Part shown: piece after piece, positions 18,624 to 47,225 of the stretch
Layout: every line of letters starts with the position of its first letter
Position numbering within the stretch: position 1 is the first letter of the stretch
Source of the DNA: Elusimicrobiota bacterium
GTDB lineage: Bacteria > Elusimicrobiota > Elusimicrobia > UBA1565
Assembly: GCA_041660925.1 (NCBI GenBank)
Contig: JBAZVI010000002.1
Span: 19,906 to 83,905 of the forward strand
Direction of reading: 5' to 3'
Length of the DNA: 64,000 nucleotides
Translations under genes and position numbers: made by a program
The notes under the pieces: generated by a model
Databases searched by the model: none
Told to the model about the DNA's origin: nothing
What the model saw: the letters and a program-made list of their open reading frames with translations, nothing else

Positions 18624-19075
18624 CAGAGATCGAGGTCCTTGGCGAGCTCCGTGAAGGACGGCGCGGCGTGCTTGCGGGAGTATTCCTGCCAGCGCGCGCG
18701 GTCCCAGATCTCGGCCTTGTTCCCCGCCCCGGCCACCACCACGTCCTTCTTGAGCCCTGCGAAATCCTTGAGGTTCTGCGGGACGAGCACGCGGCCCTGC
18801 TCGTCCACCGGCGCCTCGACCGCGCTGCTGAAGATGAAGCGCTTCGCGGCGCGGGCCTTCTTCTTGTCCTTGATGTCCTGCGTATGCGTCTTCGCGTCGT
18901 CCAGGAACGCCTCCCATTGGGACGGGAGGAACAGCCAGAGGCATTCGTCCTGACCGATCGCCAGCACGAAGTGCGAGCCCTTCTCCGCGATGAGCGCTTC
19001 GCGGTAGCGCGGCGGTACGACGACCCGGTTCTTCGGGTCGAGAGAGTAGTCGTACTGTCCGATGGTGACGGTCAT
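18623..19075 (-). CDS. mraZ: transcriptional regulator MraZ
   Basis: Trimmed from GTG-initiated ORF 18623..19117 to ATG at 19073-19075 (MTVTIGQYDYSLDPKNRVVVPPRYR...), giving a typical 150-aa two-repeat MraZ; the longer ORF would run through the operator repeats. Confidence 0.8.
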   Translation of the reverse strand: MTVTIGQYDYSLDPKNRVVVPPRYREALIAEKGSHFVLAIGQDECLWLFLPSQWEAFLDDAKTHTQDIKDKKKARAAKRFIFSSAVEAPVDEQGRVLVPQNLKDFAGLKKDVVVAGAGNKAEIWDRARWQEYSRKHAAPSFTELAKDLDL

Positions 19076-19100
19076 TTTCTTTTTTCTGCGGGGTCCCAGT

Positions 19101-19140
19101 TCCCTACTTTTCCCCACTCTTTGCCACTCTTCCCCACTGG
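19101..19140 (-). promoter_or_regulatory. candidate MraZ operator: four 10-bp-phased direct repeats with GTGGG-like cores
   Basis: Minus-strand reading CCAGTGGGGA AGAGTGGCAA AGAGTGGGGA AAAGTAGGGA, 26-65 nt upstream of the proposed mraZ ATG. Confidence 0.6.
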
Positions 19141-19315
19141 GAGCTTGAGTATAGGTAGTGAGTCGCGATTTGTCAAGACCTAGTTGAAAAAGAGCGCGCG
19201 GTGCCGACGTACTATCGCGCGCGTGAGGAACACGCGCGCGTAGTGGATGCGCGCGGTGCGCGCGCGAACCTTATAGGGGAGTGTCGGGTTCCGTTGGGAG
19301 TTGGGTTCCTTAACT

Positions 19316-19415
19316 CCCTCCCCTTCGGGGGAGGGAAGGGTGGGGGAGGACGGATGCCATCGCTAGGTACAACAGCAGGTTCCCCCTCCTCCTGCCTCCT
19401 CCCGCGGGAGGAGGA
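19316..19415. repeat. two GC-rich hairpins of the CCCTCCC-loop-GGGAGGG family
   Basis: 19316-19335 ccctcccc-ttcg-ggggaggg (8-bp stem, UUCG-type loop) and 19395-19415 cctcctccc-gcg-gggaggagg, between an upstream minus-strand gene and the mraZ leader. Confidence 0.6.
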
Positions 19416-19430
19416 GTTGAGGAAGGTCGT

Positions 19431-20558
19431 CTACATCCTGTGTTGCTGAAGATCGTAGCGCCAGGCGTACTCGAGCGCCTTGACGCGGTTGAAGGGCATG
19501 CCGTACGCGCGGTAGAGCGCGTCGTGCACGGCGACGCCGTCCTTGAGGAGGGCCGAGAAGCGGAAGAACGAGGACTTGTACTGCGCGCGGATGAGGAAGC
19601 GCACGACGCTGTAGGCCTGCGTGTACCAGAGGCGCACGCTCGCGTCGTCGGCGCCCGCCGTGTTCTCGACCGAAAGGAGCTCGGTGAGCGCGTAGCCGCC
19701 GCCGCGGCGGAGGACCTCCATGTTCTCCTTGAGCCAGTTCGGCGCCGCGAGTCCGCGCTCGGTCTGCACGAGCGTCGCCATGCCCTCGCTGAGCCAGAGC
19801 GGGTTGGAGCGTCCCCCCAGGAAGAAGCTGTCGAAGTAGATGTGGCAGAGCTCGTGGGCGAGGATGCCGATGCTCTCCTCGCTCTCGTAGAGGTAGATCT
19901 TGCGGCCCTTCACCGAACTCGCGCCGCCCGACCAGGACGGCCGGCCGGTGACGCGGCGGTAGGAGTCCTGGCTTCGGAAGAGGTAGATGGAGACGCGCTC
20001 GTCGCGCGCCCACGGGGAGAACGCCGCGAGGTCGAGCATGAGGTTGGCGTGGAGGTTCTCGATGGCGTCCACATAGGCGGCCGGCGCCTCGGTCCCTTCG
20101 GCGTAGATGTTGAAGTGGCGCGTCTGCGTCCGAAGGAAGCCCTTGGGCGTCGCGGGCTCCGCGGCCGTGGGCGCGGGCCGCACGGGCCGTTCGGGGACGG
20201 GGCGCGGAGCGCTCTCGTCCACCGGCGCCGGCCCGATCGGCTGGGGCGTCGTCGGCAGCGCGCGCAGGTGCGGGAGGGCGGCGAGCGCGGCCTCTTCGCG
20301 CGCGCGGTCCACCTGCTTCGGCAAAGTCGAGGAGGGCGGCGCGGGCTCCTGCAGCAGGTCCTCGGCGGGGCGCGGCGGGAAGAGCTGGGCATGGGAGACG
20401 GGCTCGGCCGGCGGCGGCGCCGTGGCGATGCGGCTGGTGACCCAGCGCATCTGCGGCAGCTCCCCGGTCTCGTCCTCCAGGAACTGATAGATCATGATCC
20501 CCCACAGGCAGAGGACCATGAGCCAGAGGTACAGCCGCAGCTTGATCAGGATGTCCAT
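19431..20558 (-). CDS. hypothetical membrane-anchored protein with HExxH motif (putative zinc metallopeptidase-like)
   Basis: 375 aa; N-terminal TM helix, Pro-rich linker, then domain containing ILAHELCHIYF; family assignment from memory only. Confidence 0.65.
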   Translation of the reverse strand: MDILIKLRLYLWLMVLCLWGIMIYQFLEDETGELPQMRWVTSRIATAPPPAEPVSHAQLFPPRPAEDLLQEPAPPSSTLPKQVDRAREEAALAALPHLRALPTTPQPIGPAPVDESAPRPVPERPVRPAPTAAEPATPKGFLRTQTRHFNIYAEGTEAPAAYVDAIENLHANLMLDLAAFSPWARDERVSIYLFRSQDSYRRVTGRPSWSGGASSVKGRKIYLYESEESIGILAHELCHIYFDSFFLGGRSNPLWLSEGMATLVQTERGLAAPNWLKENMEVLRRGGGYALTELLSVENTAGADDASVRLWYTQAYSVVRFLIRAQYKSSFFRFSALLKDGVAVHDALYRAYGMPFNRVKALEYAWRYDLQQHRM

Positions 20559-20646: not shown

Positions 20647-21165
20647 CTAGACCCTCGAGCCGACGTCCCGCATGCGCAGGGCGGTCTCGGCCAGAGCGTG
20701 CGCGAACATCCCGATGACGACGATGAAGACCGCGTGCACGCCGGCCATCGCCCAATGCTGTTCGCCGAGCTCGAGACCCTGGGTGTGCGCGCGCAGCGCG
20801 TAGAGCGCGAGCATCGTCAGGCCCGAGACGACCGCGGTGGCGAAGGTCTGCCAGCGGCCCTGATACATCGCCGCGGTCACCGGGGCCATCGTGAAGAGCA
20901 GCCACATCGGCCCCCAGTAGGTCCCGAGCAGGTAGAAGAGCGGGATGACCCAGAAGTAGGTGAGCCAGACCTGGAGGAGCTTCAGGCGGCTCGCCCAGCC
21001 GACGAAGCGGTAGGTGTTGCGCGCGAACCAGTGGTTGACGAGCAGCGAGGCCAGCAGCACGCCGAAGGACATGTTGCGGGTGAGCTTGTCGGGCTCCGAG
21101 AAGTAGATCGCGGCCAGGACCAGCATGGTCGCGAACGGGGTGAAGTAGATGTTCATCAGGTTCAT
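20647..21165 (-). CDS. hypothetical polytopic membrane protein
   Basis: 172 aa with several hydrophobic helices; ATG overlaps rsmG stop (ATGA), implying co-translation with rsmG. Confidence 0.6.
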   Translation of the reverse strand: MNLMNIYFTPFATMLVLAAIYFSEPDKLTRNMSFGVLLASLLVNHWFARNTYRFVGWASRLKLLQVWLTYFWVIPLFYLLGTYWGPMWLLFTMAPVTAAMYQGRWQTFATAVVSGLTMLALYALRAHTQGLELGEQHWAMAGVHAVFIVVIGMFAHALAETALRMRDVGSRV

Positions 21166-21848
21166 GCGTTCCCTCTCTCGGCGGGGCTTTTCGCCCCGAC
21201 CAGGACGATGTGGCGTTCCCGCTCCTCGCCGGGCAGGCGGTAGGTGCGGTCCTCCAGCACGGCGGCGGCGTGCGGCGAAAGCGCTTTCTCGAGCGCGGCG
21301 TCGCCCGGCGAGGGCGGCGCGCTGGTCCAGGCGGCCAGCAGCGGGGCCATCGGCAGGGCGATGCGCGCGAGCTCCGGGAGCGGCGCGACGGCGCGCGCCA
21401 TCACGGCGTCGTAGCGCCCCGCGCCCGGCGCGGGGACGCGGCGGGGCTCGATGCGCTCGTGCACGACGCGCAGGCCCGGCACGCCCAGGTGCAGCGCGGC
21501 GACGTTCAGGAAGCGGTACTTCCGGTACACGGATTCGATGAGCGTGACCTCGGCCTCGGGCCAGGCGATCTTCACGCAGAAGCCCAAAAAGCCCCCGCCC
21601 GCGCCCACGTCGGCGATGCGCGGAGCGGGGCCGAGGCGCCCGCGCAGCGCGTTCACGCCCGCGAAGGAGTCGAGGAGGTGGCGGCGGACGAGCTCCTCCT
21701 CTCCCTCCGCCGCGGTGATGTTGACGCGGCGGCTGTATTCCAACACATCGACGAGATAATTGTCCAGGAGTCCCCAGGCCCTGGCGTCCAGGGACATCCC
21801 CCAGGAGGAGAGGACCGCTTCCGCCTCGGCGCGCAGCTCGGGCTTCAT
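21162..21848 (-). CDS. rsmG: 16S rRNA (guanine527-N7)-methyltransferase RsmG (GidB)
   Basis: Trimmed from ORF 21162..23297 to ATG at 21846-21848 (MKPELRAE..., 228 aa); SAM-binding [10 protein letters not shown]; ATGA overlap with mnmG stop. Confidence 0.85.
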
Positions 21849-23584
21849 GCGGCGCACCTCTTGAGCCAGACCGAGAGGACCTGGAGGTCGGCGGCGGTGA
21901 CGCCGTGGACGCGGGAGGCCTGCGCGAGGTTCTCGGGACGGACGCGCGAGAGCCGGACGCGCGCCTCGGCGACCAGCGGCAGGCGCTCGTAGCGGAAGGC
22001 GGCGGGGATCGGCGTGCGCTCGAGGCGGCGCAGCTCCTCGAGAGCGCGCAGGTCGCGGCGCACGTAGGCGGCGTAGTGGCGGACCGTCTCGGCCTGCGCC
22101 CGCGCCTTCTCCAGCGACCAGGGGCTCATCGCCGCGTCGCCGTCCGCCGGCGCGCGGCCGGCGGCAAGAGCGTCGACCGCGTCGCGGTAGCGGAGGAAGC
22201 GCTCGCGAAGCTCGCGTCCGACGAGGCCCAGCGCGAAGCCCTTCTCGAGCAGGCGGAGGTCGGCGTTGTCGGCGCGCAGGGAGAGGCGGTGTTCGGCGCG
22301 GGCGGTGAAGAGCCGGTAGGGCTCGTCGGCGCCCCGGGTCACGAGGTCGTCGACCATGACCCCGAGGTAGGCCTCCTCCCGGGAGAGGGTGAAGCTTTCG
22401 CGCCCGAGCGCGGCCTGCGCGGCGTTGATCCCGGCGAGCAGGCCCTGGCCGGCGGCTTCCTCGTAGCCGGTGGTCCCGTTGAGCTGTCCGGCGAGGAAGA
22501 GCCCGGGCACGGCCTTCGTCTCGAGGCTCGCGCGCAGGCCCGTCGGCGGGCAGTAGTCGTACTCGATCGCGTAGCCGGGCCGCGCGACTTCGACGCGCTC
22601 GAGACCGGGGATCGTCCGCAGGAACTCGAGCTGGACCTCCTCGGGGAGGCTCGTGGAGAGGCCGCTGGGATAAAGCTCGTCGGAGTCCCGCCCCTCGGGC
22701 TCCAGGAAGACCTGGTGGCGGGTCTTCTCCGGGAACTTCACGACCTTGTCCTCGATGGAGGGGCAGTAGCGCGGGCCGAGCGCGCTCACGACGCCGCCGT
22801 AGAGGGCCGAGCGGGACAGGTTCGCGCGGATGAGCGCGTGCGCGGCTTCCCCGGTCCACGCGATCCAGCACGGCTGGAAGGGCCCGCGCGGCTTCGGTGA
22901 GCGCAGGGAGAACGGCTCGGGCTCGGGGTCGGGCTCCTCGCGCTCGAGGCGCCCGAGGTCGACGGAGCCCGCGCGCAGGCGCGGCGGCGTCCCGGTCTTG
23001 AAGCGCGCGACCTCGAGACCGAGCGCGCGCAGCGAGGCCGAGAGCCGCTGCGCGGGGGGCTCTCCGGCGCGGCCGCCGGGCTCGGTGCGCGAGCCGACGT
23101 GGATGCGGCCGCCGAGGAAGGTCCCGGCGCAGAGCACGACGGCGTCCGCCTCCACGCGGCCGGCTCGGCGCGCGAGGACGCCCCGCGCGCGGCCGTTCTC
23201 GACGAGCACCTCCTCGACCTCGTCTTCGAGGACCTCGAGCCCCGGCTGGGCCTCGAGCGCGGCGCGCATCGCCGCCGAGTAGGCCTCGCGGCCGCACTGC
23301 ACGCGCGGCGCGCGGACCGCGGCCCCGCGCGAGCGGTTGAGCGTCATGTAGTGGAGCGCGGAGCGGTCGGCGGCCAGCGCCGTCTCTCCTCCGAGGGCGT
23401 CGAGCTCGCGCACGAGCTGCCCCTTCGCGGTGCCGCCGATCGACGGGTTGCAGGACATCCGTCCCGCCGAGGCGAGGGCGTGCGTGGCGAGGACCGCGCG
23501 GCAGCCCAGGCGCGCGGCGGCGAGGGCCGCTTCGCAGCCCGCGTGGCCGGCGCCGACCACGACGACGACGGGCGCCGCGCTCAT
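21845..23584 (-). CDS. mnmG: tRNA uridine 5-carboxymethylaminomethyl modification enzyme MnmG (GidA)
   Basis: Trimmed from ORF 21845..23881 to ATG at 23582-23584 ([20 protein letters not shown]..., FAD-binding fold); MnmG-like throughout. Confidence 0.9.
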
Positions 23585-24384
23585 ACGGACATGAGCGCCT
23601 TGAGCACGGTGCGCGGGAGCGCCCCGAGGTAGTGGAAGGCGAAGACGAGGACGATCTGCGAGAGCATCGCCAGGAAGAGGGCGCAGAAGGCCCGGGCGTT
23701 GGGCAGCCGGGCGATGCGGGCGACGCCGTAGGTCCCCCACCCCAGCGTCGCGAAGAGCAGGGCGATCTCGAGCCCGTTGTAGAGCAGGGCGGCGCGCAGC
23801 AGGACGGCGGCGGCGAAGAGCGGCATCAGCGCGAGGTTGAGTGCGTTGACGAGCAGGAGCCAGCCTGCGAGCGGCCGCCACAGCGAGGGGTCGGTCGCGC
23901 GCAGGCGGCGGCCGATGAGGGCGGCGAGCGCGAGGAGTCCGGCGCCGAGCGCCCAGCGCGGCATCCCCGTGTTCCGGTAGATGAGCAGGAGCGCGAGGGG
24001 CGCGGCCGCGCTCGCGCAGGCCGCCAGCAGGCGCGGCGCGAGGCGCCGGCCGGCGAGGAGCGTCAGGAAGAAGGCCGTGAGCGCGCAGAGGAGCGCGGTC
24101 AGGGGCGGGCTCCAGGCCTGGACCTGCGCCCAGAAGAGGAGACCCCCCTCGGGAGGCGTGAAGGGCTGCTCCGGCCCGAGCGGCGGGAAGCCGGCGGGCT
24201 TGAGCGCGTAGAAGACGGTGCTGAAGGCGAGGTAGGCGGCGTAGACGCGCGCGGCCGACCAGAGCGCCTCGGGGTCCTCGTGCAGCGCGCGCAGGGCGCG
24301 GGCCGGCGCGAACACCAGGTCCCGCGCGAGCGCCCAGGCCGACGCGGCCTCCGCGAGGGTCTTCGCTTCCCCCTTACGCGGCAC
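23581..24384 (-). CDS. hypothetical polytopic membrane protein
   Basis: 267 aa, multiple TM helices; stop overlaps mnmG start (ATGA). Confidence 0.55.
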
Positions 24385-25645
24385 GGGCGGCCTCCCGGGA
24401 GTCGGTCTCCACGCTGCGCGCGCCCCAGAGGCAGAAGGCGCCGGCCAGGCCCATGAACGCCATGGAGCCGAGCAGGGCGGCGCGCAGGCCCCAGAGGTCG
24501 GAGGCGCGGCCGATGAGCGTCGGGCTGACCGCGTCGCCGAGGGCGTGGATGACGAAGATGTTGGCCGCGAAGGCCATGGAGCGGACGGCCGGGGCCGTGA
24601 CGGAGACGATGACCCCGTTGAGCGGCCCCATGTTCAGGAAGGCGCAGGTCTCCGCGAGGAAGAGGGCGCCGAGCGTCAGCGGCAGCGAGCCCGCGCAGAG
24701 GGACCAGATCCCGAAGGGCATCGCGAGCAGGAGTCCCGTGCCGGAGACGAGGAAGTAGGCCTTGCCGGTGACTTTGAGGAGGCGGTCTCCGAGCCAGCCG
24801 CCGAGGAGGCTCCCGACGAGTCCCCCCGCCACCGTGACGGCGCCGAAGAGCGTCCCGGCGCGGGCGACGTCCATGCCCCAGTAGCGGTTGAAGAAGCTCG
24901 GCATCCAGACCGCGAGGCCGCCGAGGCAGAAGGTCATCGCGGCCATGGCGAGCGTGCTCGCGAGGTAGGAGGGGTTGCGGTAGAGCGCCGCGTACTCTCG
25001 AAGGGTCGGCGGGATGCGGGAGGCGCCGGCTTCCCCGCGCGGGTCGCGCAGGCGCAGGGCGAGCGCGGCGAGCAGGAGCCCCGGGAGGCCGAGGAGGAAG
25101 AAGGCGGCGCGCCAGCCGAAGCGGCCGCCGAACCAGCCGCCGAGGACGTAGCCGAGCGCGCTGCCGACGGGGATGGCCATCGAGAAGAGGGCGAGGACGC
25201 GGCCGCGGCGCTCGGCCGGGAAGGGTTCCGCGACGAACGAGGGAGAGACGCTGCCGTAGCAGGACTCTCCGATGCCCACCGCGGCGCGCGCGGCGAAGAG
25301 CTGCGCGTAGCCGCGGGCGAGCCCCGAGAAGCAGGTCGCGACGCTCCAGAAGGCGATGCCTCCGGCGATCCAGCGGGTCCGGCGGGTGCGGTCGGCGAGC
25401 CAGCCGATGGGCGGGGCCGCGCACATGTAGACGAGCATGAACGCCGAGGCGAGGGCTCCGAGCCGCGCGTCGCTGACGAGGAACTCCGCCTTGATGAGCG
25501 GAAGCAGCGCGTAGAGGACCTGCCGGTCGATGTAGTTGAAGAGGTTGATGAAGAAGAGGAGCAGCAGCGCGCCGTTGGGAGAGGCGATCCCCGCCCAGGC
25601 CGCCGCGCGCTCGGAGGGAAGGTCGGCCGTGATGGGAGAGCTCAC
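24374..25645 (-). CDS. MFS transporter
   Basis: 423 aa, about 12 predicted TM helices, MFS-like loop motifs (GWLADRTRRTRW, GRFGWR). Confidence 0.8.
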   Translation of the reverse strand: MSSPITADLPSERAAAWAGIASPNGALLLLFFINLFNYIDRQVLYALLPLIKAEFLVSDARLGALASAFMLVYMCAAPPIGWLADRTRRTRWIAGGIAFWSVATCFSGLARGYAQLFAARAAVGIGESCYGSVSPSFVAEPFPAERRGRVLALFSMAIPVGSALGYVLGGWFGGRFGWRAAFFLLGLPGLLLAALALRLRDPRGEAGASRIPPTLREYAALYRNPSYLASTLAMAAMTFCLGGLAVWMPSFFNRYWGMDVARAGTLFGAVTVAGGLVGSLLGGWLGDRLLKVTGKAYFLVSGTGLLLAMPFGIWSLCAGSLPLTLGALFLAETCAFLNMGPLNGVIVSVTAPAVRSMAFAANIFVIHALGDAVSPTLIGRASDLWGLRAALLGSMAFMGLAGAFCLWGARSVETDSREAARAA

Positions 25646-25673
25646 GCGCGCGGTCCGCCCATAAGTTGTTCCC

Positions 25674-25760
25674 CCCTCCCTCTCGAGGGAGGGGTAGGGG
25701 GGAGGGTAGAGCTCTGAACGGCAGTTCTACCCACTCCGTCCCTCCCTCGAAGAGGGAGGG
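25674..25760. repeat. two GC-rich hairpins of the CCCTCCC-loop-GGGAGGG family
   Basis: 25674-25693 ccctccc-tctcga-gggaggg and 25740-25760 ccctccct-cgaag-agggaggg, in the intergenic region between mnmE stop and MFS start. Confidence 0.6.
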
Positions 25761-25793
25761 TGATGGAAAGTCGGGCGATCGGGTCGGGCGGAC

Positions 25794-27146
25794 TCATTTG
25801 CCTACACAAAAGTGCGCAAACACCGCGGAGAGGACGTCTTCGCGCGTCGTCCGTCCGCAGAGCTCGTCGAGGGCGTCGAGCGCCGCGCGCAGGTGCGCGG
25901 CCGCGAGCTCGGGTTCGGCGGCCCGAGCGCAGGCGGCGTCCGTCTCCTTCAGCGCCTCCTCCAGGGCCGCGAGGTGGCGCTCCCCGAGCCCGAAGGCCCA
26001 GGGCTCGCCGGCGTCGTCGGCGGGAACGGCGGCGGCGCGCAGGCCGGAGGCGAGCGCCTCGAGACCCTCCCCGCGCAGGGCGGAGACCTCGACGACCGGC
26101 AGGCCGGGCGTCCAGGAGAGGACCGCGGGCGTCGTAAGGCCGGCGGGCAGGTCGCACTTGTTGAGGGCGGCGACGGCCGGCCTCCCCTCCCGCGCGACGC
26201 GCTCGAGCAGCGCGCGCTGCGGTCCCGGGGAGGCCGCGCGGTCGAGCACGACGAGGGCGGCGTCGCAGCCGGCGAGCTCCGCCTCGGCGCGGCGGCGTCC
26301 CTCGGCTTCCACGGCGCCGACTCCGTCCTCGCGCAGCCCCGCCGTGTCCACCAGGACGGCGGGGAGGCCGTCGAGGTCGCAGGCGGCTTCGAGCGTGTCG
26401 CGCGTCGTCCCCGGCAGCGGGGAGACGATGGCCCGTTCGCGCCCGAGCAGGGCGTTGAGGAGCGAGGACTTCCCGGCGTTGGGGCGCCCGAGGATGGCGA
26501 TGCGCGGCTCCGCCGAAAGGATGCGCCCGCGGCGCGCGGCCGCGGCCGTCCGGAAGAGGCGTTCGCGGGCGCGCGCGAGCGCGCGGCGGAGGCTCTCTGC
26601 GGAGAGCGCGGCGACCTCCCCTTCGGGGTGGTCGACGGCGGCCTCGACGGGGGCCAGGGCGTCGAGCAGGACGGCGCGCAGCGCCGCGGTCTCGCGGGAG
26701 AGGCCGCCCTCGAGGCGCAGCATCGCGCCCCGGTGGGCCCGGCGGCTGCGGGCGGCGATGAGGTCGGCGACGGCCTCGGCCTGGGAGAGGTCGAGACGTC
26801 CGTTGAGGTAGGCGCGCTGGGTGAACTCCCCCGGCCGCGCCGGCCGCGCTCCGGCTTCGCGGCAGAGCGCGAGCAGGCGCTCGAGGATCCAGGGGGAGCC
26901 GTGCGCGGAGAACTCCACCGCGTCCTCACCCGTGGAGCTCGAAGCGGCGGGGAAGTAGGTCACGAGCGCGCGGTCGAGCGGCTTCCCCCCGTCGAAGACC
27001 GTGCGCAGGACGGGATGGCGAGCGGGGAGCTCCGCCCCGGCGAGGAGGGCGCGCGCGAGCGCGCGCGCCCCCCCGCCGGAGAGCCGGACGATCCCGAGCG
27101 CCCCTCGTCCGGGGGGCGTCGCGAGCGCGGCGATGACGTCGCTCAC
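25794..27146 (-). CDS. mnmE: tRNA modification GTPase MnmE (TrmE)
   Basis: 450 aa; G1 motif GRPNAGKSSLLNAL, G3 DTAGLR, characteristic C-terminal FCVGK. Confidence 0.9.
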   Translation of the reverse strand: MSDVIAALATPPGRGALGIVRLSGGGARALARALLAGAELPARHPVLRTVFDGGKPLDRALVTYFPAASSSTGEDAVEFSAHGSPWILERLLALCREAGARPARPGEFTQRAYLNGRLDLSQAEAVADLIAARSRRAHRGAMLRLEGGLSRETAALRAVLLDALAPVEAAVDHPEGEVAALSAESLRRALARARERLFRTAAAARRGRILSAEPRIAILGRPNAGKSSLLNALLGRERAIVSPLPGTTRDTLEAACDLDGLPAVLVDTAGLREDGVGAVEAEGRRRAEAELAGCDAALVVLDRAASPGPQRALLERVAREGRPAVAALNKCDLPAGLTTPAVLSWTPGLPVVEVSALRGEGLEALASGLRAAAVPADDAGEPWAFGLGERHLAALEEALKETDAACARAAEPELAAAHLRAALDALDELCGRTTREDVLSAVFAHFCVGK

Positions 27147-27157
27147 CGCGCGGGGTC

Positions 27158-28006
27158 TCAGCCCTTGCGGGGCTTGACGACGACCTTCCGCCAGGGACCT
27201 TCCCCTTCGGAGGCCGTCTCGACGTCCGGGTCGTTCATGAGCTTTCGGTGGATGAGGCGGCGCATCGCGGGGTCCATGGGCTCGAAGCGCCAGGGACGGC
27301 CCGTGCTCTTGACCTGAGCGACGGCGGCGCCGATGTCGGCGACGATCCGCTCCTCGATGCGCTTCCAGTAGCCCTGGCTGTCGACCTGCACGGCGACCGG
27401 CGAGCCCATGCGGCGCCCGGCGATCACGGTGACGAGGAACTGCAGGGACTCCAGGGTCTTCCCACCCTTGCCGATGAGCAGCGCGGCGTCGACGGTCTCG
27501 ACCTCCGCGCGCACGCGCGCCTGCTCGACGTCCCAGGCGGCGCTCACCCCGACCTCGGCGACGCCGAGCAGCGGGAGGAACTCCTTGAGGACCTCCTGCG
27601 CGACGGCGCAGGCCTTGGCGGTGTCGACGGGGACTTCCGGCTCCTGGGGACGCGGTTCGCGCCGTTCCGGCGCGGGACCCGGCCGGTGCTCGGGCGCGGC
27701 GTGCGGGCGCGGGGTCCTCTCCGCGCGCGGGGCGTGGCGTTCCGGGCGCGGCGTCGAGTGCGCTCGCGCGACCGGCTTGGGCGCGGCGGGACGGACGGAC
27801 GGGGGCTCGGAGGGCTCCGGCGCCTCGGGTCCCCAGCGCTTCTCGCGGATGAGCACGCGGGCGGGCTTGGCGCCGATGCCGAGGAAGCCCGCGTTGCCTT
27901 CTTCGAGGACCTGCACCTCGACCTGGTCGCGGCGCAGGCCGATCTCCTTGAGGCCGTGCTCGACGGCGATGGTGACGGTCTTTCCTTCCATCTCTAGTTC
28001 TTTCAT
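27158..28006 (-). CDS. jag: Jag/KhpB-family RNA-binding protein (KH + R3H domains)
   Basis: Trimmed from ORF 27158..28981 to ATG at 28004-28006 (MKELEMEGK...), 2 nt after yidC stop; KH-like LIGKGGKTLESLQ and R3H-like C-terminus; canonical position after yidC. Confidence 0.8.
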   Translation of the reverse strand: MKELEMEGKTVTIAVEHGLKEIGLRRDQVEVQVLEEGNAGFLGIGAKPARVLIREKRWGPEAPEPSEPPSVRPAAPKPVARAHSTPRPERHAPRAERTPRPHAAPEHRPGPAPERREPRPQEPEVPVDTAKACAVAQEVLKEFLPLLGVAEVGVSAAWDVEQARVRAEVETVDAALLIGKGGKTLESLQFLVTVIAGRRMGSPVAVQVDSQGYWKRIEERIVADIGAAVAQVKSTGRPWRFEPMDPAMRRLIHRKLMNDPDVETASEGEGPWRKVVVKPRKG

Positions 28007-28008
28007 GG

Positions 28009-29598
28009 TCAGCTCCAGTGCTTGCGGAGGGAATATTGCTGGATGAGGCCGAGCGTGCTGTTGGTGAGCCAGTAGAGCACGAGCCCGGCCGGGAACTTCA
28101 GGAACATGAACGTGAAGATCACGGGCATGTACTGGAACATCTTCGACTGCACGGGGTCGCCCGTCTGCACGGGGTTCAGTCGGCTCTGCAGGAACATGAC
28201 TCCGCCCATCACCAGCGGGAGCGCGTAGTACGGGTCGTGCGCGGACAGGTCGTGGATCCAGAAGATCCACGGCGCGCCGTGCAGCTCCCAGGCGTTGCGC
28301 AGGGCGTTGAAGAGCGCGACGAAGACCGGCATCTGCAGGAGGATGGGCAGGCAGCCTCCGAGCGGATTGGCGCCGTGCTTCCGGTAGAGCTCCATCATCT
28401 CCTGGTTCATGCGTGCGGGGTCCTTCGAGTACTTCTGCTGGATGCGGGACATCTCGGGCTGCACCTTCTTCATGATGGCCGCGGACTTCATCTGCTTGTA
28501 CGTGAGAGGGAACATCAGGATCTGCAGCAGGACGGTCATGAGCAGGATCGCCCAGCCGTAGTTCCCGGTCAGCCGGTAGAGACGGTAGATGACCTTGAGC
28601 GCCGCGCGCCCGAAGGTGTCGAACCAGCCGAACTGCACCGACTTCTCGAGGCCGAGCTGCAGGTCCCGCAGGGCCACGTAGCCCTTGGGGCCGAGGTAGA
28701 ACGGCAGCTCGAGGGTCATCTCGGCGCGGGGCTCGAGGGCGAGCGGCTTCATCCCCACGCGCGTGCGCGGGGCGAGGTCCCCCGCCATCGGCTCGGCCGA
28801 GGTCTCGACGCGGCCGGAGGCCGCGTCGCCGGGAAGGACGACGGCGAGGAAGTAGCGGTTGTGCACGCCGGCCCAGCGGAACTCCCCGTCGCGGGAGACG
28901 GGCTCTCCTTTGGGCTTGAAGTCCTGGAAGCGCGGCTGCTTCTTGCCGAGCTCCGGGGGCAGCAGGAGCGCGCTCCTCCACTGAGACGAGTTCTCCTTGA
29001 GCTCGCTGGGGACCGTGCCGAGACCGGGACCGACCGACAGGTCCCAGGCGGGGAGCTCGACGCGCTTCGCTCCGGGGTTGTTCACCGTGAGCTTCATCTT
29101 GTGCAGCCCGCGCGCTTCGTCGAAGAGGTACTCCTTGCGGATGAGCGCGCCGGAGGGGTGCTTCGCCTCGAAGGCCAGGGCGCCCGCTCCCGCGGGGACC
29201 GCGCGGAAGGCGAGCTCGGGCCAGGTCGCGAAGAAGCCCGGCCGGGCCGCGGGCACGAGCTCGACGGGGCCGAGAGGCCCGGGGTAGCGGTAGCTTGCGA
29301 TCGACGCGCCGAGCGGCTGGACCTTGAGCTCGACGCGTCCGAGCGTGTAGGGCAGGGCCCCCTCGGTCCCGTCGTCGGGGAGCGCGGAGACCGGGGCCGC
29401 GGGCAGCGCGGCGGCGGTCTTCCCCTCCGCGGCCGCGGTCCGCGCGGCTGCGGCGGGAGCGGCCTTCCCTCCCGCGGACGCCGATGCGGCCGGCGGCGCG
29501 GGCTTGTTCGTGTCCGGGTAGACGCGCTTCATGATGCCGAACCAGCCGGCGTAGACGAGGATCGAGAGGGCTACGGCTAGGAAGAGGTTGCGGTCCAT
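28009..29598 (-). CDS. yidC: membrane protein insertase YidC
   Basis: 529 aa; N-terminal TM, large periplasmic domain, conserved C-terminal core (PLGGCLPILLQMPVF...). Confidence 0.9.
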   Translation of the reverse strand: MDRNLFLAVALSILVYAGWFGIMKRVYPDTNKPAPPAASASAGGKAAPAAAARTAAAEGKTAAALPAAPVSALPDDGTEGALPYTLGRVELKVQPLGASIASYRYPGPLGPVELVPAARPGFFATWPELAFRAVPAGAGALAFEAKHPSGALIRKEYLFDEARGLHKMKLTVNNPGAKRVELPAWDLSVGPGLGTVPSELKENSSQWRSALLLPPELGKKQPRFQDFKPKGEPVSRDGEFRWAGVHNRYFLAVVLPGDAASGRVETSAEPMAGDLAPRTRVGMKPLALEPRAEMTLELPFYLGPKGYVALRDLQLGLEKSVQFGWFDTFGRAALKVIYRLYRLTGNYGWAILLMTVLLQILMFPLTYKQMKSAAIMKKVQPEMSRIQQKYSKDPARMNQEMMELYRKHGANPLGGCLPILLQMPVFVALFNALRNAWELHGAPWIFWIHDLSAHDPYYALPLVMGGVMFLQSRLNPVQTGDPVQSKMFQYMPVIFTFMFLKFPAGLVLYWLTNSTLGLIQQYSLRKHWS

Positions 29599-29653
29599 TC
29601 CATCTCCAGGCGATGACGGTCGCCGTCCGGCTGGAGGCCGCGAGCGCGCGGGG

Positions 29654-29911
29654 TCATCCGGCCGGTACGGGGTCGTGGCCGCCGGGATGGAACGGATGGC
29701 AGCGCAGGAGCCGCCCGACGATCCTCATGAAGGCGAGGTGCAGGGGCAGGCGGGTGAGCGCTTCGCGGGCGTAGAGAGAGCAGGTCGGAGAGAACCGGCA
29801 GCTCGCCGGCCACAGGGCCGCACGGGCCGCGCGGAACAGGTCGAGCACCGTCAGGAGTACGGTCCGCACCTTCTCATTCATGGCGGAGGATGCCCGCTCT
29901 GCGGCAGACAT
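29654..29911 (-). CDS. yidD: membrane protein insertion efficiency factor YidD
   Basis: 85 aa with CRFSPTCSLY...RCHPFHPGGHDPVP signature; true start may be the internal Met (MNEKV...), which shortens the overlap with rnpA. Confidence 0.8.
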   Translation of the reverse strand: MSAAERASSAMNEKVRTVLLTVLDLFRAARAALWPASCRFSPTCSLYAREALTRLPLHLAFMRIVGRLLRCHPFHPGGHDPVPAG

Positions 29912-30233
29912 CCAGGAGCGCTGCCTCTGCGTCGTCCAGTCCCATCCAACGGCAGCCGGGGCGCGGATAGAAGATACAGTCCGCCCCGGGGTCGATGCGG
30001 CTTCGGTTGAGGCGGAAAGCTTCGCGGAGCAGACGCTTCAACCGGCTGCGGCGCACGGCGCCGCCGAGCTTGCGGCTGACGGAGAGTCCGATGCGCGGAC
30101 CGACCGTCGTCCCCGAGTCCCGTCGGTACCAGAGGATCAGGTCCGGGCGCACGCACTTGCGGCCTGAGGAGAAGACGCCCCTCATCGCGAGGGCCGTCAT
30201 CCGCGCGCATCGCCCGAGTCCTCCGGTGCGCAC
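29874..30233 (-). CDS. rnpA: ribonuclease P protein component
   Basis: 119 aa basic protein with RnpA-like core (GLSVSRKLGGAVRRSRLKRLLREAFR); position between rpmH and yidD; start uncertain. Confidence 0.75.
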   Translation of the reverse strand: MRTGGLGRCARMTALAMRGVFSSGRKCVRPDLILWYRRDSGTTVGPRIGLSVSRKLGGAVRRSRLKRLLREAFRLNRSRIDPGADCIFYPRPGCRWMGLDDAEAALLDVCRRAGILRHE

Positions 30234-30244
30234 CGGGCGGAGAC

Positions 30245-30391
30245 TCAGTGCTTCTCGATCTTGATCAGCTGGTGCCGGCCTTTTCTTCGGCGAGCCGAAA
30301 GGACCTTGCGGCCCCCGGCCGTCTTCATGCGGGCCCGGAAACCGATGTGCTTAGCGCGCTTGCGTCGATTGGGTCGATATGTGGGAAGCAT
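30245..30391 (-). CDS. rpmH: 50S ribosomal protein L34
   Basis: Last 48 codons of ORF 30245..31471 read [48 protein letters not shown] from ATG at 30389-30391, a near-canonical L34 sequence. Confidence 0.85.
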
Positions 30392-30517
30392 GGTGCGGAT
30401 TATAGTAAAAATCGGCGCGAAGGCGGCATCGGAGAATCGTCCCGGCGTATATATAGGAATCCGACGCGCCGGCGCCGCTCCCTCGCGGGGAAGTCGGGGG
30501 CGTCGAAAAAATGATAT

Positions 30518-32879: not shown

Positions 32880-33674
32880 ATGGCGGGCCGTCGCCACTCG
32901 CGCGGTCGCATGGCGATCGCCCAGGGGCTCGTCCTTCGCCGGGGAGTGCTCGGAGAGTCCGACCGCTTCTGCGTCCTCTACACGGCCGAGTACGGCAAGC
33001 TGCCGGTCCGCTTCATCGGCGTCAACCGCCCGCACGGGAAGCTCAAGGCCCTCTCCGAGCCGCTGGCCCTGGGCGAGTACCGCCTCCACCTGCGCGAGGG
33101 CTCCGAGTCGGCGCTCTGCACGGGAGGGTCCCTGACCACCACCCACCCGCGCCTGCGCGCCGACCTCGACCGGCTGCTGCGCGCGCTGCAGGTCTGCGAG
33201 CTGCTCGACCGCCTGACGCCCGTCTCTCAGCCGAGTCCCGCCAAGTTCTCGCTCGCGCTCGAGACCCTCGCGCGCATCGAGGACGCCGAGGCCCTCTTCT
33301 CCTGCGACTGGCTGCTCATCTCCTTCTCGCTGCGCCTGCTCGGCGAGGCCGGCTTCGGCGTGGCCGACCTGCCCGTCACGGAGCGCAACCGCGCGCTCTG
33401 GGACCTGCTCCACGACGCGCCGCTCTCCGAGGTCGCGGCCCTGCCCGAGGACCCCGAGCGCCGCGCGCGCCTCGAGGGCTATCTCCAGCGCAGCGTCGAG
33501 GGCCTGACCGAGAAGCCGCTGCGCACGCTCCGGATGCGCGCGCAGCTCGCCGCGCCCATCATCTCCCCTCCCTTCTCAAGGGAGGGGCTGGGGGTGGGTA
33601 GGACTCCTAAGACGGCGGTTCTCCCCCACCCTGCCCTCCCCGTAGGGGAGGGAATATTGAAAGGACGACCCTGA
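32880..33674 (+). CDS. recO: DNA repair protein RecO
   Basis: 264 aa; N-terminal OB-fold-like segment [30 protein letters not shown]; start may be the internal ATG near 32910; 3' end runs through two GC-rich hairpin repeats. Confidence 0.7.
33565..33652. repeat. two GC-rich hairpins of the CCCTCCC-loop-GGGAGGG family
   Basis: 33565-33587 cccctccc-ttctcaa-gggagggg and 33634-33652 ccctcccc-gta-ggggaggg, inside the last about 35 codons of the recO ORF and just upstream of glyQ. Confidence 0.6.
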
Positions 33675-33681
33675 GGAACCA

Positions 33682-45902: not shown

Positions 45903-46042
45903 GGTAGCAGTTCCCCTCTTTTCGGATAAGGGCCCAAGGTCCCATACTTGCCCGGGTCTGCCCAAGTTACGATTGAGAGGTGCGAATAGTTCCATTGAGG
46001 GAAGCGCGGCCGGACGGGAGAAGGGATGAAAGCTGATGCTCC

Positions 46043-46183
46043 CTAGCGGGAGCGCGAGCTCTTCAGGTCCAGCTCGAAGGCGATCTTCGAACGATTCTCC
46101 CAGAAATGCGCCATCTTCTGCCTTGCCGACTTGCGGGGACGCGCAGAAGAGGCCGCGGCTTTTCTTGGTCGAGAGGCGGTCAT
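46043..46183 (-). CDS. hypothetical small basic protein (46 aa)
   Basis: ATG overlaps gmd stop (ATGA); Arg/Lys-rich; could equally be non-coding. Confidence 0.2.
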
Positions 46184-47190: not shown

Positions 47191-47225
47191 GTCGTCCGCG
47201 ATTCTAGCAGTTTTCGTCCGAGGAG

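What the first reader, a model, noticed from the sequence alone, without database searches (positions are those of the whole stretch)
25674..25760. Dispersed family of GC-rich hairpins CCCTCCC(C/T)-loop-(G/A)GGGAGGG (six copies in the window)
Near-identical 7-8-bp stems with 3-7-nt loops occur at 19316-19335, 19395-19415, 25674-25693, 25740-25760, 33565-33587 and 33634-33652, always in pairs and always at gene boundaries. This resembles REP/BIME-type repetitive extragenic palindromes, which can act as terminators, mRNA stabilisers or targets of REP-associated transposases. No associated transposase gene is seen in this window.
Basis: seen in the sequence. Interest (0 to 1): 0.5.

Follow-up and report, generated by a model that had tools for sequence, protein, structure and literature searches.

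The report
Triplex-type palindromic repeat doublets (BoxC-like)
The six GC-rich hairpins are real, but they are three copies of a roughly 100-base inverted-pair repeat of the already described "intrastrand triplex" (E. coli BoxC/PIT) kind, inserted at gene junctions in an Elusimicrobiota genome, and in other bacteria this kind of repeat sits right next to a small DUF559 nuclease gene that may be its unknown partner.

Summary
Five exact CCCTCCC-N3-9-GGGAGGG hairpins plus one variant lie at the stated coordinates, against 0.01 expected by chance.

They are three inverted doublets (19316-19414, 25673-25760, 33565-33652), not six separate hairpins. Each half is a pyrimidine arm, a complementary purine arm, and a third G-rich arm that mirrors the purine arm. 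That is the class II intrastrand triplex motif known as E. coli BoxC / PIT / TM_ECO (Holder et al. 2015). All six halves fit it, against 0.025 expected.

A syntenic relative (GlyQ 89% identical) has mnmE/MFS overlapping and recO/glyQ 28 nt apart, with no element. Sites B and C are therefore insertions. B and C share their spacer, so the doublet is the copied unit.

The elements lack a U-tract, a GTAG head and any transposase in the window. They are REP-like in behaviour but not REP/BIME.

The same motif occurs across many phyla and in viral contigs.

Unexpected lead: DUF559 (Vsr-like endonuclease) genes are bracketed by such motifs. Of 16 loci found by protein search, 13 have one within 300 nt, against 8 of 96 control windows (p = 3e-9). 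This includes E. coli ycjD. No DUF559 gene lies in this window.

Verdict: a new member of a known kind. The DUF559 link is worth testing.

The parts
19316..19345 (+). Half-unit A1: CCCTCCCC ttcg GGGGAGGG aa GGGTGGGG (pyrimidine arm, purine arm, mirror third arm)
   Evidence: Triplex-motif finder: stem 8, 0 mismatches. Also a canonical G4 motif. Sub-threshold Rfam Whalefall-1 match, 26.4 bits against a gathering score of 37.
19346..19384 (.). Spacer of doublet A (39 nt), which forms the top of the central hairpin
   Evidence: Sequence. Fold of 19305-19425: -70.3 kcal/mol, z = -3.7.
19385..19414 (-). Half-unit A2, read on the - strand: CCTCCTCC cgcg GGAGGAGG ca GGAGGAGG. The stem is a variant, and the third arm changes with it.
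   Evidence: stem 8, 0 mismatches. It has no G3 tracts and so no G4 motif, yet the mirror rule is met perfectly.
25673..25707 (+). Half-unit B1: CCCCTCCCT ctcg AGGGAGGGG tagg GGGGAGGGT
   Evidence: stem 9, 0 mismatches.
25708..25728 (.). Spacer of doublet B (21 nt), homologous to the spacer of doublet C
   Evidence: Spacer B against spacer C: 17 identical, shuffle p = 0.0005.
25729..25760 (-). Half-unit B2, read on the - strand: CCCTCCCT cttcg AGGGAGGG acg GAGTGGGT. Slightly degenerate.
   Evidence: stem 8, 1 mismatch in the third arm. No G4 motif.
25646..25793 (.). Whole segment present in the window but absent from the relative L123, where the mnmE stop and the MFS start overlap by 4 nt. It is the likely extent of insertion B (148 nt).
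   Evidence: Gene table of L123 and junction alignment.
33565..33600 (+). Half-unit C1: CCCCTCCCTT ctc AAGGGAGGGG ctg GGGGTGGGTA
   Evidence: stem 10, 0 mismatches.
33601..33623 (.). Spacer of doublet C (23 nt)
33624..33652 (-). Half-unit C2, read on the - strand: CCCTCCCC tac GGGGAGGG ca GGGTGGGG
   Evidence: stem 8, 0 mismatches.
33552..33681 (.). Segment between the ancestral end of recO and the glyQ start. It is about 130 nt here, 28 nt in L123, and a 4-nt overlap in L125 and L127. It is the likely extent of insertion C.
   Evidence: RecO ends ...LRMRAQVLAA* in L123, but here continues ...[48 protein letters not shown].
32880..33674 (+). recO open reading frame whose last ~38 codons are encoded by element C. 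This is a consequence of the insertion, not part of the repeat.
   Evidence: Pfam RecO_N and RecO_C, translation, comparison with relatives.

Best explanation
The six hairpins are three copies of one composite DNA repeat. Each copy is an inverted doublet of a G/C-rich 'intrastrand triplex motif'.

Each half-unit reads 5'-pyrimidine arm (CCCCTCCC[Y]), a 3-5-nt loop, the complementary purine arm ([R]GGGAGGGG), a 2-4-nt loop, then a third arm that mirrors the purine arm, with T or A opposite A (GGGGTGGG). The two half-units face each other on opposite strands across a 21-39-nt spacer.

Shown:
- This is the same architecture as E. coli BoxC / PIT / TM_ECO.
- Copies B and C are insertions in this Elusimicrobiota lineage. 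They sit at junctions where relatives have overlapping or adjacent genes.
- B and C are copies of each other, spacer included, so the doublet is the unit that was copied, not the single hairpin.

Inferred:
- The element acts at the DNA level. When a strand is unpaired during replication, transcription or repair, each half can fold into a hairpin whose purine arm is covered by the third arm through reverse-Hoogsteen G*G:C and T/A*A:T triples. G-quadruplex and long-hairpin folds are competing alternatives.
- It spreads as a non-autonomous, REPIN/MITE-like repeat, not by serving the neighbouring genes.
- Its local effects are side effects. It separates genes that are overlapping or adjacent in relatives (likely translationally coupled), extends recO by ~38 codons, and probably makes the locus prone to rearrangement.

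Inferred more weakly: the enzyme that recognises it is a DUF559 (Vsr-like, PD-(D/E)XK) endonuclease encoded elsewhere in the genome.
For: Architecture:
- All six half-units satisfy a class II triplex-motif definition, five perfectly with stems of 8-10. Forty Markov-simulated windows average 0.025.
- The variant half-unit A2 changes its stem to GGAGGAGG and its third arm changes to GGAGGAGG. It keeps the mirror while losing G3 tracts.
- For hairpins with asymmetric purine arms, third arms obey the mirror rule and not the direct-repeat rule. Exclusive counts are window 3:0, loci chosen only by DUF559 protein similarity 25:1, genome loci 104:0 and viral loci 74:1. An earlier run-length test gave 76:0.
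- The G4 rule fits only 4 of 6 half-units.

Identity with a known kind:
- PMC4666352 defines TM_ECO/BoxC as CCCTCNCCC-N3-6-GGGNGAGGG-N3-GGGNGAGGG. It is intergenic, often occurs in inverted pairs, and forms a triplex in vitro by NMR.
- Purine-motif triplexes do not form in RNA.

Insertion:
- The syntenic relative L123 (GlyQ 89% identical) has mnmE/MFS overlapping by 4 nt and recO/glyQ 28 nt apart. L125-L128 have recO/glyQ overlapping. None carries the element.
- No triplex motif of this kind occurs in the syntenic 20-kb regions from the three related genomes, each sampled from two assemblies (L123-L128). One weak 7-nt one-mismatch hit in L125/L126 does not resemble it.

Copying unit:
- B and C share 106 of 136 positions, with spacer similarity p = 0.0005. 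They lie in the same DNA orientation although their flanking genes are on opposite strands.

Not a terminator: no T-run.

Breadth:
- At least 120 stretches in genomes of many phyla, with GC from 31% to 71%, and at least 120 in viral contigs.

DUF559 link:
- Seven DUF559 genes occur in the motif-selected loci, six of them with a motif within 30 nt of a gene end.
- In the reverse test, starting from the protein, 13 of 16 loci have motifs within 300 nt, against 8 of 96 control windows. Fisher p = 2.6e-9.
- E. coli ycjD has a BoxC 165 nt downstream.
- E. coli lineages with ycjD carry 19-30 TM_ECO copies. Those inferred to lack it (shown for B2 and O157:H7; inferred from phylogroup for the D and F strains) carry 1-15.
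Against: - Only three copies are visible, and the rest of the 556-kb contig could not be read.
- B and C are only 78% identical, so copying is not recent.
- No target-site duplication could be defined. Intergenic sequence has diverged from the nearest relative.
- A metagenome scan for the B/C-type spacer plus hairpin found only the site-C copy itself and one unrelated hit. This subfamily is therefore not demonstrably high-copy.
- For E. coli TM_ECO, in vivo DMS footprinting did not detect a stable triplex. PIT elements had no measurable in vivo effect on replication, transcription or conjugation (PMC4666352).
- The authors found no association with transposons, phages or plasmids.
- No DUF559 gene is in the window.
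- The E. coli correlation between copy number and ycjD is confounded by phylogeny, amounting to about one or two events.
- Orientation of the motifs around DUF559 genes is not uniform. They face inward in alphaproteobacteria and outward in Deinococcus, Synechocystis and Prevotella.
Confidence: 0.62

Rival explanations
1. REP/BIME-type repetitive extragenic palindromes mobilised by a REP-associated tyrosine transposase (RAYT) encoded elsewhere.
For: The repeats are extragenic, palindromic, in inverted pairs like REPINs, and present or absent at orthologous sites.
Against: - There is no GTAG/CGTC tetranucleotide head beside the stems. That this head defines REPs is recalled from the literature, not tested here.
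- A third mirror arm is present, which REPs do not have.
- No Y1/HUH transposase was found among the ORFs scanned.
- The gene repeatedly found bracketed by such motifs elsewhere is DUF559, not a RAYT.
Confidence: 0.05
2. An RNA-level element: a bidirectional transcription terminator or attenuator, a 3'-end mRNA stabiliser, or an RNA hairpin/G-quadruplex switch affecting the neighbouring genes.
For: - Both strands fold stably, with z-scores from -2.8 to -6.3.
- All three copies lie between co-directional genes.
- Site A lies between a gene end and the promoter-like site of mraZ.
- Four of six half-units hold a canonical G4 motif.
Against: - No U-tract follows any hairpin.
- B and C sit where relatives have overlapping or adjacent genes, presumably co-transcribed. 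One of these precedes the essential glyQS genes.
- B and C have the same DNA orientation but opposite orientation to transcription.
- The mirror rule for the third arm has no RNA rationale, because purine-motif triplexes do not form in RNA (PMC4666352).
- E. coli PIT elements showed no promoter or terminator activity.
- No Rfam family reaches its threshold.
Confidence: 0.13
3. A DNA G-quadruplex/hairpin/duplex switch acting as a regulatory site, as in Kaplan et al. 2016. The G tracts would be what is selected, and the triplex geometry incidental.
For: - Four G tracts with 1-3-nt loops occur in A1, B1, C1 and C2.
- The E. coli counterpart and an archaeal C3TC3 counterpart show G4/hairpin/triplex equilibria in vitro (PMC5100583; PMC8044849).
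Against: - A2 and B2 lack a G4 motif but keep the mirror arm.
- Run lengths of the third arm track the mirror of the purine arm. Mirror-only against direct-only counts are 76:0, and 104:0, 74:1 and 25:1. A quadruplex does not require this.
- NMR of TM_ECO showed a triplex, not a G4 (PMC4666352).
- No common function or set distance to flanking genes was found in E. coli.
Confidence: 0.12
4. Chance or compositional artefact of a 70% G+C genome.
For: The window has high G+C.
Against: - 0.01 hairpins are expected against 5 observed.
- 0.025 triplex motifs are expected against 6 observed.
- The same motif occurs in genomes of 31-45% G+C.
Confidence: 0.01

Closest known systems
E. coli BoxC, also called PIT (potential intrastrand triplex) element or TM_ECO (Bachellier 1990s; Hoyne and Maher 2000/2002; Holder et al. 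2015, PMC4666352)
   Same: - Three-segment class II architecture: pyrimidine arm, purine arm, mirror third arm.
- G/C-rich stems of 8-10 nt.
- Intergenic and multi-copy.
- Frequently arranged as inverted pairs on opposite strands.
- Presence or absence varies between relatives.
- No terminator features.
   Different: - Stem sequence: CCC(C)TCCC(Y) with one interruption, against CCCTCNCCC with two.
- Second loop of 2-4 nt instead of 3.
- Host phylum is Elusimicrobiota rather than Proteobacteria.
- Triplex folding is not shown for this variant.
Recurrent PQS/C3TC3 repeats of Methanomicrobiaceae (PMC8044849)
   Same: - Same minimal stem, C3TC3/G3AG3, plus two further G runs.
- Intergenic.
- Hairpin, antiparallel triplex and G4 equilibria were shown in vitro.
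   Different: - The order is reversed: the G-rich third strand is 5' and the C-rich arm 3' (class I).
- Archaeal hosts.
- No doublet arrangement was reported in what I read.
REP/BIME and REPIN-RAYT systems
   Same: - Works alike in outline. Short extragenic palindromes occur as inverted doublets and are non-autonomous.
- A single-copy gene for a nuclease-type enzyme is bracketed by the repeats (DUF559 here, RAYT there).
- Repeat number tracks presence of that gene in E. coli lineages.
   Different: - No GTAG/CGTC head.
- An extra mirror arm is present.
- The candidate enzyme has a PD-(D/E)XK Vsr-like fold (Pfam DUF559; PDB 3HRL), not a Y1 HUH transposase.
- No activity has been demonstrated.
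Rfam Whalefall-1 RNA motif (RF01762)
   Same: The model consensus is a CUCUCC/GGAGAG hairpin followed by AGGGUGAGG. This is probably the same kind of element seen in a metagenome.
   Different: The match is below the gathering score (26.4 against 37 bits) and covers one half-unit only. It was described as an RNA, not a DNA repeat.

Membership tests
BoxC / PIT / TM_ECO-type intrastrand triplex repeat | Class II three-segment layout: homopyrimidine arm, loop, complementary homopurine arm, loop, and a third arm antiparallel to and mirroring the purine arm (G opposite G, A or T opposite A) | tested here: met
   Six of six half-units fit, five perfectly. Mirror-only against direct-only counts are 3:0 in the window and 25:1, 104:0 and 74:1 in other sets.
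BoxC / PIT / TM_ECO-type intrastrand triplex repeat | TM_ECO consensus CCCTCNCCC-N3-6-GGGNGAGGG-N3-GGGNGAGGG | tested here: not met
   The stems are CCCTCCCC, CCCCTCCCT or CCTCCTCC, and the second loop is 2-4 nt (compared with the consensus quoted). This is a sister variant, not TM_ECO itself.
BoxC / PIT / TM_ECO-type intrastrand triplex repeat | Intergenic, multi-copy, often as inverted pairs on opposite strands | tested here: met
   Three doublets lie at gene junctions. The paper reports 5 inverted pairs among 23 copies in K-12.
BoxC / PIT / TM_ECO-type intrastrand triplex repeat | The single strand folds into a stable triplex in vitro (CD/NMR) | not testable with these tools
   Only Watson-Crick folding could be computed.
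REP/BIME with RAYT | Conserved GTAG or CGTC tetranucleotide at the 5' end of the palindrome (recalled from Nunvar 2010 and Di Nocera 2013) | tested here: not met
   The left flanks are ...TTAACT...GTTGTTCC and ...CATCATCT.
REP/BIME with RAYT | A Y1 (HUH) transposase gene flanked by the repeats somewhere in the genome | tested here: inconclusive
   None was found among 40 window ORFs scanned with Pfam. The rest of the genome is not available.
MITE | Terminal inverted repeats plus a target-site duplication plus a related full-length IS | tested here: inconclusive
   The ends are inverted-repeat-like. No duplication is definable, because the flanks have diverged from the empty sites. No IS lies in the window. 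DUF559 genes bracketed by the motif in other genomes could be the autonomous form.
Intrinsic terminator | G+C-rich hairpin followed by a U/T run | tested here: not met
   None of the six hairpins is reported by the terminator scan, and no T-run follows them (sequence).
Hairpin/G-quadruplex switch (HPGQ of Kaplan 2016) | Four G3+ tracts with short loops, preceded by a C-rich tract complementary to two of them | tested here: inconclusive
   Met by A1, B1, C1 and C2. Not met by A2 and B2.
Rfam Whalefall-1 (RF01762) | Score at or above the family's gathering threshold (37 bits) | tested here: not met
   26.4 bits on A1 only. No family reaches its gathering score anywhere in the window.

The most novel reading that the evidence does not exclude
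The BoxC/PIT/'triplex motif' repeats have had no known enzyme or mechanism of spread since the 1990s. They may be the DNA partner of the uncharacterised DUF559 (Vsr-like, PD-(D/E)XK) endonuclease family. DUF559 genes bracketed by inverted motifs would be the autonomous form. Gene-less doublets like the three in this window would be the non-autonomous form, made or maintained in trans. The relation would resemble RAYT and REPINs, or a homing endonuclease and its target. This would explain why near-identical motifs occur across bacterial phyla and in viral contigs. I found no paper linking the two.
Probability: 0.4. Interest if true: 0.8.

Novelty: new member of a known kind. Interest (0 to 1): 0.5.

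Why it matters
For this window, the repeats explain three local oddities:
- an extended recO reading frame;
- loss of gene overlap at mnmE/MFS and at recO/glyQ;
- a long spacer upstream of the mraZ (dcw) promoter.

They also warn annotators that the last ~38 codons of recO are repeat-derived.

More generally, the data give sequence-only evidence that the third arm is constrained to triplex geometry across many lineages. This bears on the unsettled question of whether these motifs matter as triplexes, as quadruplexes or only as hairpins.

The tight linkage with DUF559 genes offers a concrete, testable candidate for the missing protein partner of a repeat family that is widespread but functionally orphan. 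It would also give a first functional context for DUF559/YcjD.

Tried and rejected
- Rfam at gathering thresholds gave no hit in the window. In E-value mode there were only sub-threshold matches, mostly miRNA-precursor models matching any long hairpin. The one meaningful match is Whalefall-1 at 26.4 of 37 bits.
- BLAST of element B against plasmid and phage collections gave no match, probably because the low-complexity filter masks it. I used pattern scans instead.
- A metagenome scan for the B/C-type spacer plus hairpin was meant to collect more copies of this subfamily. It returned only the site-C copy (L130, the same contig as L001) and one unrelated hit (L129).
- I looked for a target-site duplication by aligning filled and empty sites. 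The flanks are too diverged.
- The first literature search, with the sequence string GGGGAGGGG, found nothing relevant.
- All-against-all clustering of ORFs in motif-bearing loci was mostly noise. It returned shadow ORFs of high-GC DNA, gene-transfer-agent-like prophage genes in the viral set, and ABC ATPases. The DUF559 cluster was the one informative result.
- I looked for a clean 'empty site' for the E. coli ycjD + BoxC cassette. In B2 and O157:H7 strains the site holds the eef RND-efflux operon instead, so it is a replacement and not an empty site.
- The nucleotide statistics opposite the A (T 145, A 9, C 1) are not usable as evidence. My search pattern (GGGKGK) largely forced T.
- The exact-protein look-up did not return the 556-kb source contig, so I could not do a genome-wide count or a DUF559 search in the source organism.
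Full report
OBSERVATION

The hairpins are real and are not chance. The exact pattern CCCTCCC-N3-9-GGGAGGG occurs five times in the window, at 19316, 25674, 25740, 33566 and 33634. Dinucleotide-preserving shuffles give 0.01. A relaxed scan adds the variant CCTCCTCC-cgcg-GGAGGAGG at 19395-19414 and nothing comparable elsewhere in the 64 kb.

The flanking genes were identified with Pfam.
- Site A lies between the stop of a Peptidase_MA gene (19431-20558, -) and mraZ (18623-19117, -), the first gene of the dcw cluster. A strong sigma-70-like site (TTGACA-17-TATACT, 19176-19148, -) lies between the element and mraZ.
- Site B lies between the mnmE stop (25794) and the start of an MFS transporter gene (25645), both on the - strand.
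- Site C lies 8 nt upstream of glyQ (33682, +). The recO reading frame (32880-33674) runs through it.

ANATOMY

The six hairpins are not independent. Aligning the three sites shows one composite unit: hairpin 1, a G-rich run, a variable centre, a C-rich run, then hairpin 2. Both strands fold far better than shuffles, with z from -2.8 to -6.3.

The G-rich run after hairpin 1, and the G-rich run after hairpin 2 read on the other strand, are not arbitrary. Each mirrors the purine arm of its hairpin, with T or A opposite the A.
- A1: GGGGAGGG-aa-GGGTGGGG
- B1: AGGGAGGGG-tagg-GGGGAGGGT
- C1: AAGGGAGGGG-ctg-GGGGTGGGTA
- C2: GGGGAGGG-ca-GGGTGGGG
- A2: GGAGGAGG-ca-GGAGGAGG
- B2: one mismatch

A finder for this three-segment layout reports exactly these six sites. 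Forty Markov-simulated windows average 0.025. Each site is therefore an inverted doublet of a pyrimidine arm, purine arm and mirror arm, with third arms pointing inward across a 21-39-nt spacer.

WHAT IT IS

The hosts included:
- Bacteroidota, including Prevotella at 43-55% G+C and others down to 31%;
- Cyanobacteria at 39-43% G+C;
- Alpha-, Beta- and Gammaproteobacteria;
- Chloroflexota, Planctomycetota and Nitrospiraceae;
- Clostridia, 'Deltaproteobacteria' and Chthonomonadaceae.

In Sphingomonas and other alphaproteobacteria the hits come as + / - pairs 80-110 nt apart, which is the same doublet.

The literature search led to Holder et al. 2015 (PMC4666352). That paper describes 'intrastrand triplex motifs'. 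In particular it covers TM_ECO, which is the same as BoxC and as the PIT element of Hoyne and Maher. Its consensus is CCCTCNCCC-N3-6-GGGNGAGGG-N3-GGGNGAGGG. The paper reports the following:
- 3610 copies in 262 proteobacterial genomes;
- 23 copies in K-12, all intergenic, ten of them as five inverted pairs;
- a stable triplex in vitro by NMR;
- no stable triplex detectable in vivo by DMS footprinting;
- no promoter or terminator activity in earlier tests;
- an association with locally variable genome regions.

Kaplan et al. 2016 (PMC5100583) read the same E. coli motif as a G-quadruplex/hairpin/duplex switch. A 2021 paper (PMC8044849) found a C3TC3-stem version in reversed order in methanogenic archaea, with hairpin, triplex and G4 equilibria in vitro.

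The window's elements share the architecture of this kind but not the TM_ECO consensus. They are a sister variant.

TRIPLEX, QUADRUPLEX OR JUST A HAIRPIN?

A sequence-only test separates these readings. If the purine arm is asymmetric (for example G4-A-G3), a reverse-Hoogsteen third strand must be its mirror (G3-W-G4). A quadruplex or a local duplication would be equally satisfied by the direct order.

Among asymmetric arms in the genome loci, 76 fit only the mirror, 0 fit only the direct order, 26 fit both and 7 fit neither. A more general recount gives these mirror-only against direct-only figures:
- window: 3:0
- genome loci: 104:0
- viral loci: 74:1
- 16 loci chosen purely by DUF559 protein similarity: 25:1

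The last set was not selected through any DNA pattern. In those loci the stems differ by lineage, yet the third arm follows each time:
- Deinococcus: GGGGGAGGC / GGGAGGGGG
- Pseudanabaena: TGGGGGA / AGGGGGC
- Neisseria: GGGAGAGAG / GAGAGAGGG
- Photobacterium: AAGGGGGAGG / GGTGGGGGTT
- Synechocystis: GGAGAGGGG / GGGGTGAGG

In the window, a canonical G4 motif exists in only four of the six half-units. The triplex rule holds for all six. Purine-motif triplexes do not form in RNA (PMC4666352), so this constraint points to a DNA-level property. This is inference from sequence. Folding was not and cannot be tested here.

ORIGIN OF THE COPIES IN THIS GENOME

GlyQ identifies the source as an Elusimicrobiota MAG with a 556-kb contig. 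Three related genomes, each sampled from two assemblies, are syntenic.
- In L123 (GlyQ 89% identical), the mnmE stop and the MFS start overlap by 4 nt, and recO ends 28 nt before glyQ.
- In L125-L128 (82% and 76% identical), recO and glyQ overlap.
- None has the element.
- Their 20-kb regions contain no triplex motif of this kind. There is only one weak hit, with a 7-nt stem and one mismatch, in L125/L126.

Parsimony therefore makes B (about 148 nt extra) and C (about 100-130 nt extra) insertions in the window's lineage. RecO ends ...LRMRAQVLAA* in L123. Here it continues for ~38 codons encoded by the element.

B and C are 78% identical over 136 nt. Their spacers are significantly similar (p = 0.0005) and their left flanks are too (p = 0.018). 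They lie in the same DNA orientation although B sits among - strand genes and C among + strand genes. The doublet is therefore the unit that was copied, and its orientation is not tied to transcription. A is a more distant relative, with a variant stem and a better match in reverse orientation.

No target-site duplication could be defined. A scan of metagenome contigs for the B/C spacer type found no further copies.

WHAT IT IS NOT

- Not REP/BIME. There is no GTAG/CGTC head and there is an extra arm. No Y1 transposase was found among 40 ORFs scanned.
- Not an intrinsic terminator. No T-run follows any hairpin, and B and C sit inside what relatives keep as overlapping or tightly adjacent gene pairs.
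- Not a described RNA family. The only suggestive sub-threshold match is Whalefall-1, whose consensus is a CUCUCC/GGAGAG hairpin plus AGGGUGAGG. It looks like the same kind of element.

AN UNEXPECTED ASSOCIATION

I clustered all ORFs of the 120 motif-bearing genome loci to look for a recurrent neighbour. One small family stood out, in five loci. Pfam identifies it as DUF559 (PF04480, E about 1e-34 to 1e-37), with a weaker match to REase_MTES_1575. The nearest solved structure is the uncharacterised 'endonuclease-like protein' 3HRL.

tblastn finds seven such genes in the 2 Mb of motif-selected loci. Six have a strict-pattern motif within 30 nt of a gene end. By eye all seven have motif-like sequence at one or both ends of the gene:
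- a sense motif 13-35 nt before the start codon; and/or
- an antisense motif overlapping the last codons, giving C-terminal tails such as HPHPNPPPEGEG or TPTPSPSPQGGGE.

In E. coli K-12, the single DUF559 gene ycjD has a CCCTCGC/GCGAGGG hairpin at its stop and a full BoxC 165 nt downstream. With 23 copies in 4.6 Mb, that is unlikely by chance (roughly 0.004 by my own estimate).

Those loci had been selected for the motif, so I ran the reverse test. tblastn of one DUF559 protein against plasmid and chromid records gave 35 records. I fetched 16 loci from Azospirillum, Sphingomonas, Shinella, Sinorhizobium, four Deinococcus, Picosynechococcus, Pseudanabaena, Synechocystis, Neisseria, Photobacterium, Qipengyuania and Pseudomonas.
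- Thirteen of the 16 have triplex motifs within 300 nt of the gene, usually on both sides.
- Eight of 96 equally sized control windows in the same loci have one.
- The odds ratio is 48 and Fisher p = 2.6e-9.
- Three Deinococcus loci are orthologous, so the number of independent cases is nearer 11 of 14.

In Photobacterium and Neisseria the gene sits at the edge of a tandem array of doublets. The genes are lone small ORFs wedged into housekeeping operons, for example between gatB/yqeY and dnaG, between paaD and paaZ, and in the hpa cluster. That is how selfish genes sit.

In E. coli, ycjD is present in 3378 of 5426 complete genomes. It characterises phylogroups A, B1 and C, plus ST69 and ST182. 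Elsewhere the eef efflux operon occupies the site (PMC12817139).

Holder's supplementary table gives TM_ECO counts per strain:
- A/B1/C strains: 19-30
- O157:H7: 11
- 042: 12-13
- UMN026: 15
- IAI39: 6
- SMS-3-5: 7
- B2 strains: 1-2

Repeat number is thus highest where the gene is present, as with RAYT and REPINs. The contrast is phylogenetically confounded, amounting to one or two events. ycjD status was checked directly only for B2 and O157:H7 representatives. For the D and F strains it is inferred from phylogroup.

None of the 25 papers in the library that mention DUF559, nor those mentioning YcjD, links it to these repeats. Holder et al. do not mention the gene.

No DUF559 gene is in the window. 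If the link is functional, the enzyme acts in trans from elsewhere in the genome or has been lost.

MECHANISM, WITH STATUS OF EACH STEP

Shown:
- the three-arm mirror architecture;
- the doublet arrangement;
- insertion at two junctions;
- copying of the doublet as a unit;
- absence of terminator, REP and transposase features;
- cross-phylum occurrence;
- tight physical linkage of this motif class with DUF559 genes.

Established by others for the E. coli variant:
- a triplex fold in vitro;
- no stable triplex in vivo;
- locally elevated genome variability.

Inferred:
- the element matters as DNA that folds when single-stranded;
- it propagates as a non-autonomous repeat;
- its effects on recO, on gene coupling and on the dcw upstream region are by-products.

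Speculative, at about 0.4: DUF559 is the enzyme that recognises the folded or duplex motif and either spreads the doublets or homes into them.

VERDICT

The elements are a new member, with a CCCTCCC stem and in Elusimicrobiota, of an already described kind: BoxC/PIT/TM intrastrand-triplex repeats. For the window alone, interest is moderate. The DUF559 association, found on the way, is the part that could make an old open question testable.

Noticed in passing
L003, L030, L039, L046, L084, L116, L180; L252-L267; E. coli K-12 L251:7206-7761: DUF559 (PF04480, Vsr-like endonuclease) genes are bracketed by triplex-type motifs in many phyla. Of 16 loci chosen by protein similarity, 13 have motifs within 300 nt, against 8 of 96 control windows. 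E. coli ycjD has a BoxC 165 nt downstream. No paper found in the library links the two.
   Followed up: yes
window 32880-33674: The recO reading frame runs through element C and gains about 38 repeat-encoded codons (...[39 protein letters not shown]) compared with relatives. An annotated RecO from this genome would carry a spurious or novel C-terminal tail.
   Followed up: yes
L129:11230-11420 (JGI contig Ga0160428_1001490): A triplex-motif doublet appears to be inserted in frame inside a class I aminoacyl-tRNA synthetase gene, between ...WPFATLGW and RYPNDVLISGFDILFFW. Its second half-unit is itself split by a ~62-nt palindromic insertion. This is reminiscent of Rickettsia palindromic elements within coding genes.
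   Followed up: partly
L263:3355-4940 (Photobacterium sp. GJ3 pGJ3-1); L262:3484-4180 (Neisseria gonorrhoeae): Tandem arrays of triplex-motif doublets start right next to a DUF559 gene. The period is about 150 nt in Photobacterium and about 280 nt in Neisseria.
   Followed up: partly
window 46000-64000: G+C drops from about 70% to about 60% over a cluster of surface-polysaccharide genes. These include GDP-mannose dehydratase, Polysacc_synt_2, glycosyltransferases, DegT aminotransferase, cytidylyltransferase, acyltransferase, FkbM methyltransferase and a radical SAM/SPASM protein. It is probably a horizontally exchanged glycan locus. It holds no triplex motifs.
   Followed up: partly
window 19148-19176 (- strand): A near-consensus sigma-70-type promoter-like site (TTGACA-17-TATACT, 11 of 12) lies about 30 nt upstream of mraZ, between element A and the dcw cluster.
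   Followed up: no
window 19314-19351: Sub-threshold match to the Rfam Whalefall-1 RNA motif (26.4 bits, gathering score 37). The model's consensus is a CUCUCC/GGAGAG hairpin followed by AGGGUGAGG. Whalefall-1 may itself be a triplex-type DNA repeat, not an RNA.
   Followed up: partly
About 29 of the fetched loci share a set of phage-like genes, which I judged by eye to resemble alphaproteobacterial gene-transfer-agent clusters. This was not confirmed with a family search.
   Followed up: no
window 21000-30500: The gene order rsmG - mnmG region - MFS - mnmE - jag - yidC - yidD/rnpA is the cluster usually found near the replication origin. GC skew changes sign near 30 kb. All three doublets lie within 14 kb around it. 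Holder et al. noted origin-proximal clustering of TM_ECO in K-12 only.
   Followed up: no
E. coli fabI-sapF intergenic site (L251, L268, L269): ycjD plus its BoxC, and the eefRABCD efflux operon, are alternative occupants of the same site. ycjD is present in 3378 of 5426 complete genomes. Published work infers at least two independent replacements.
   Followed up: partly
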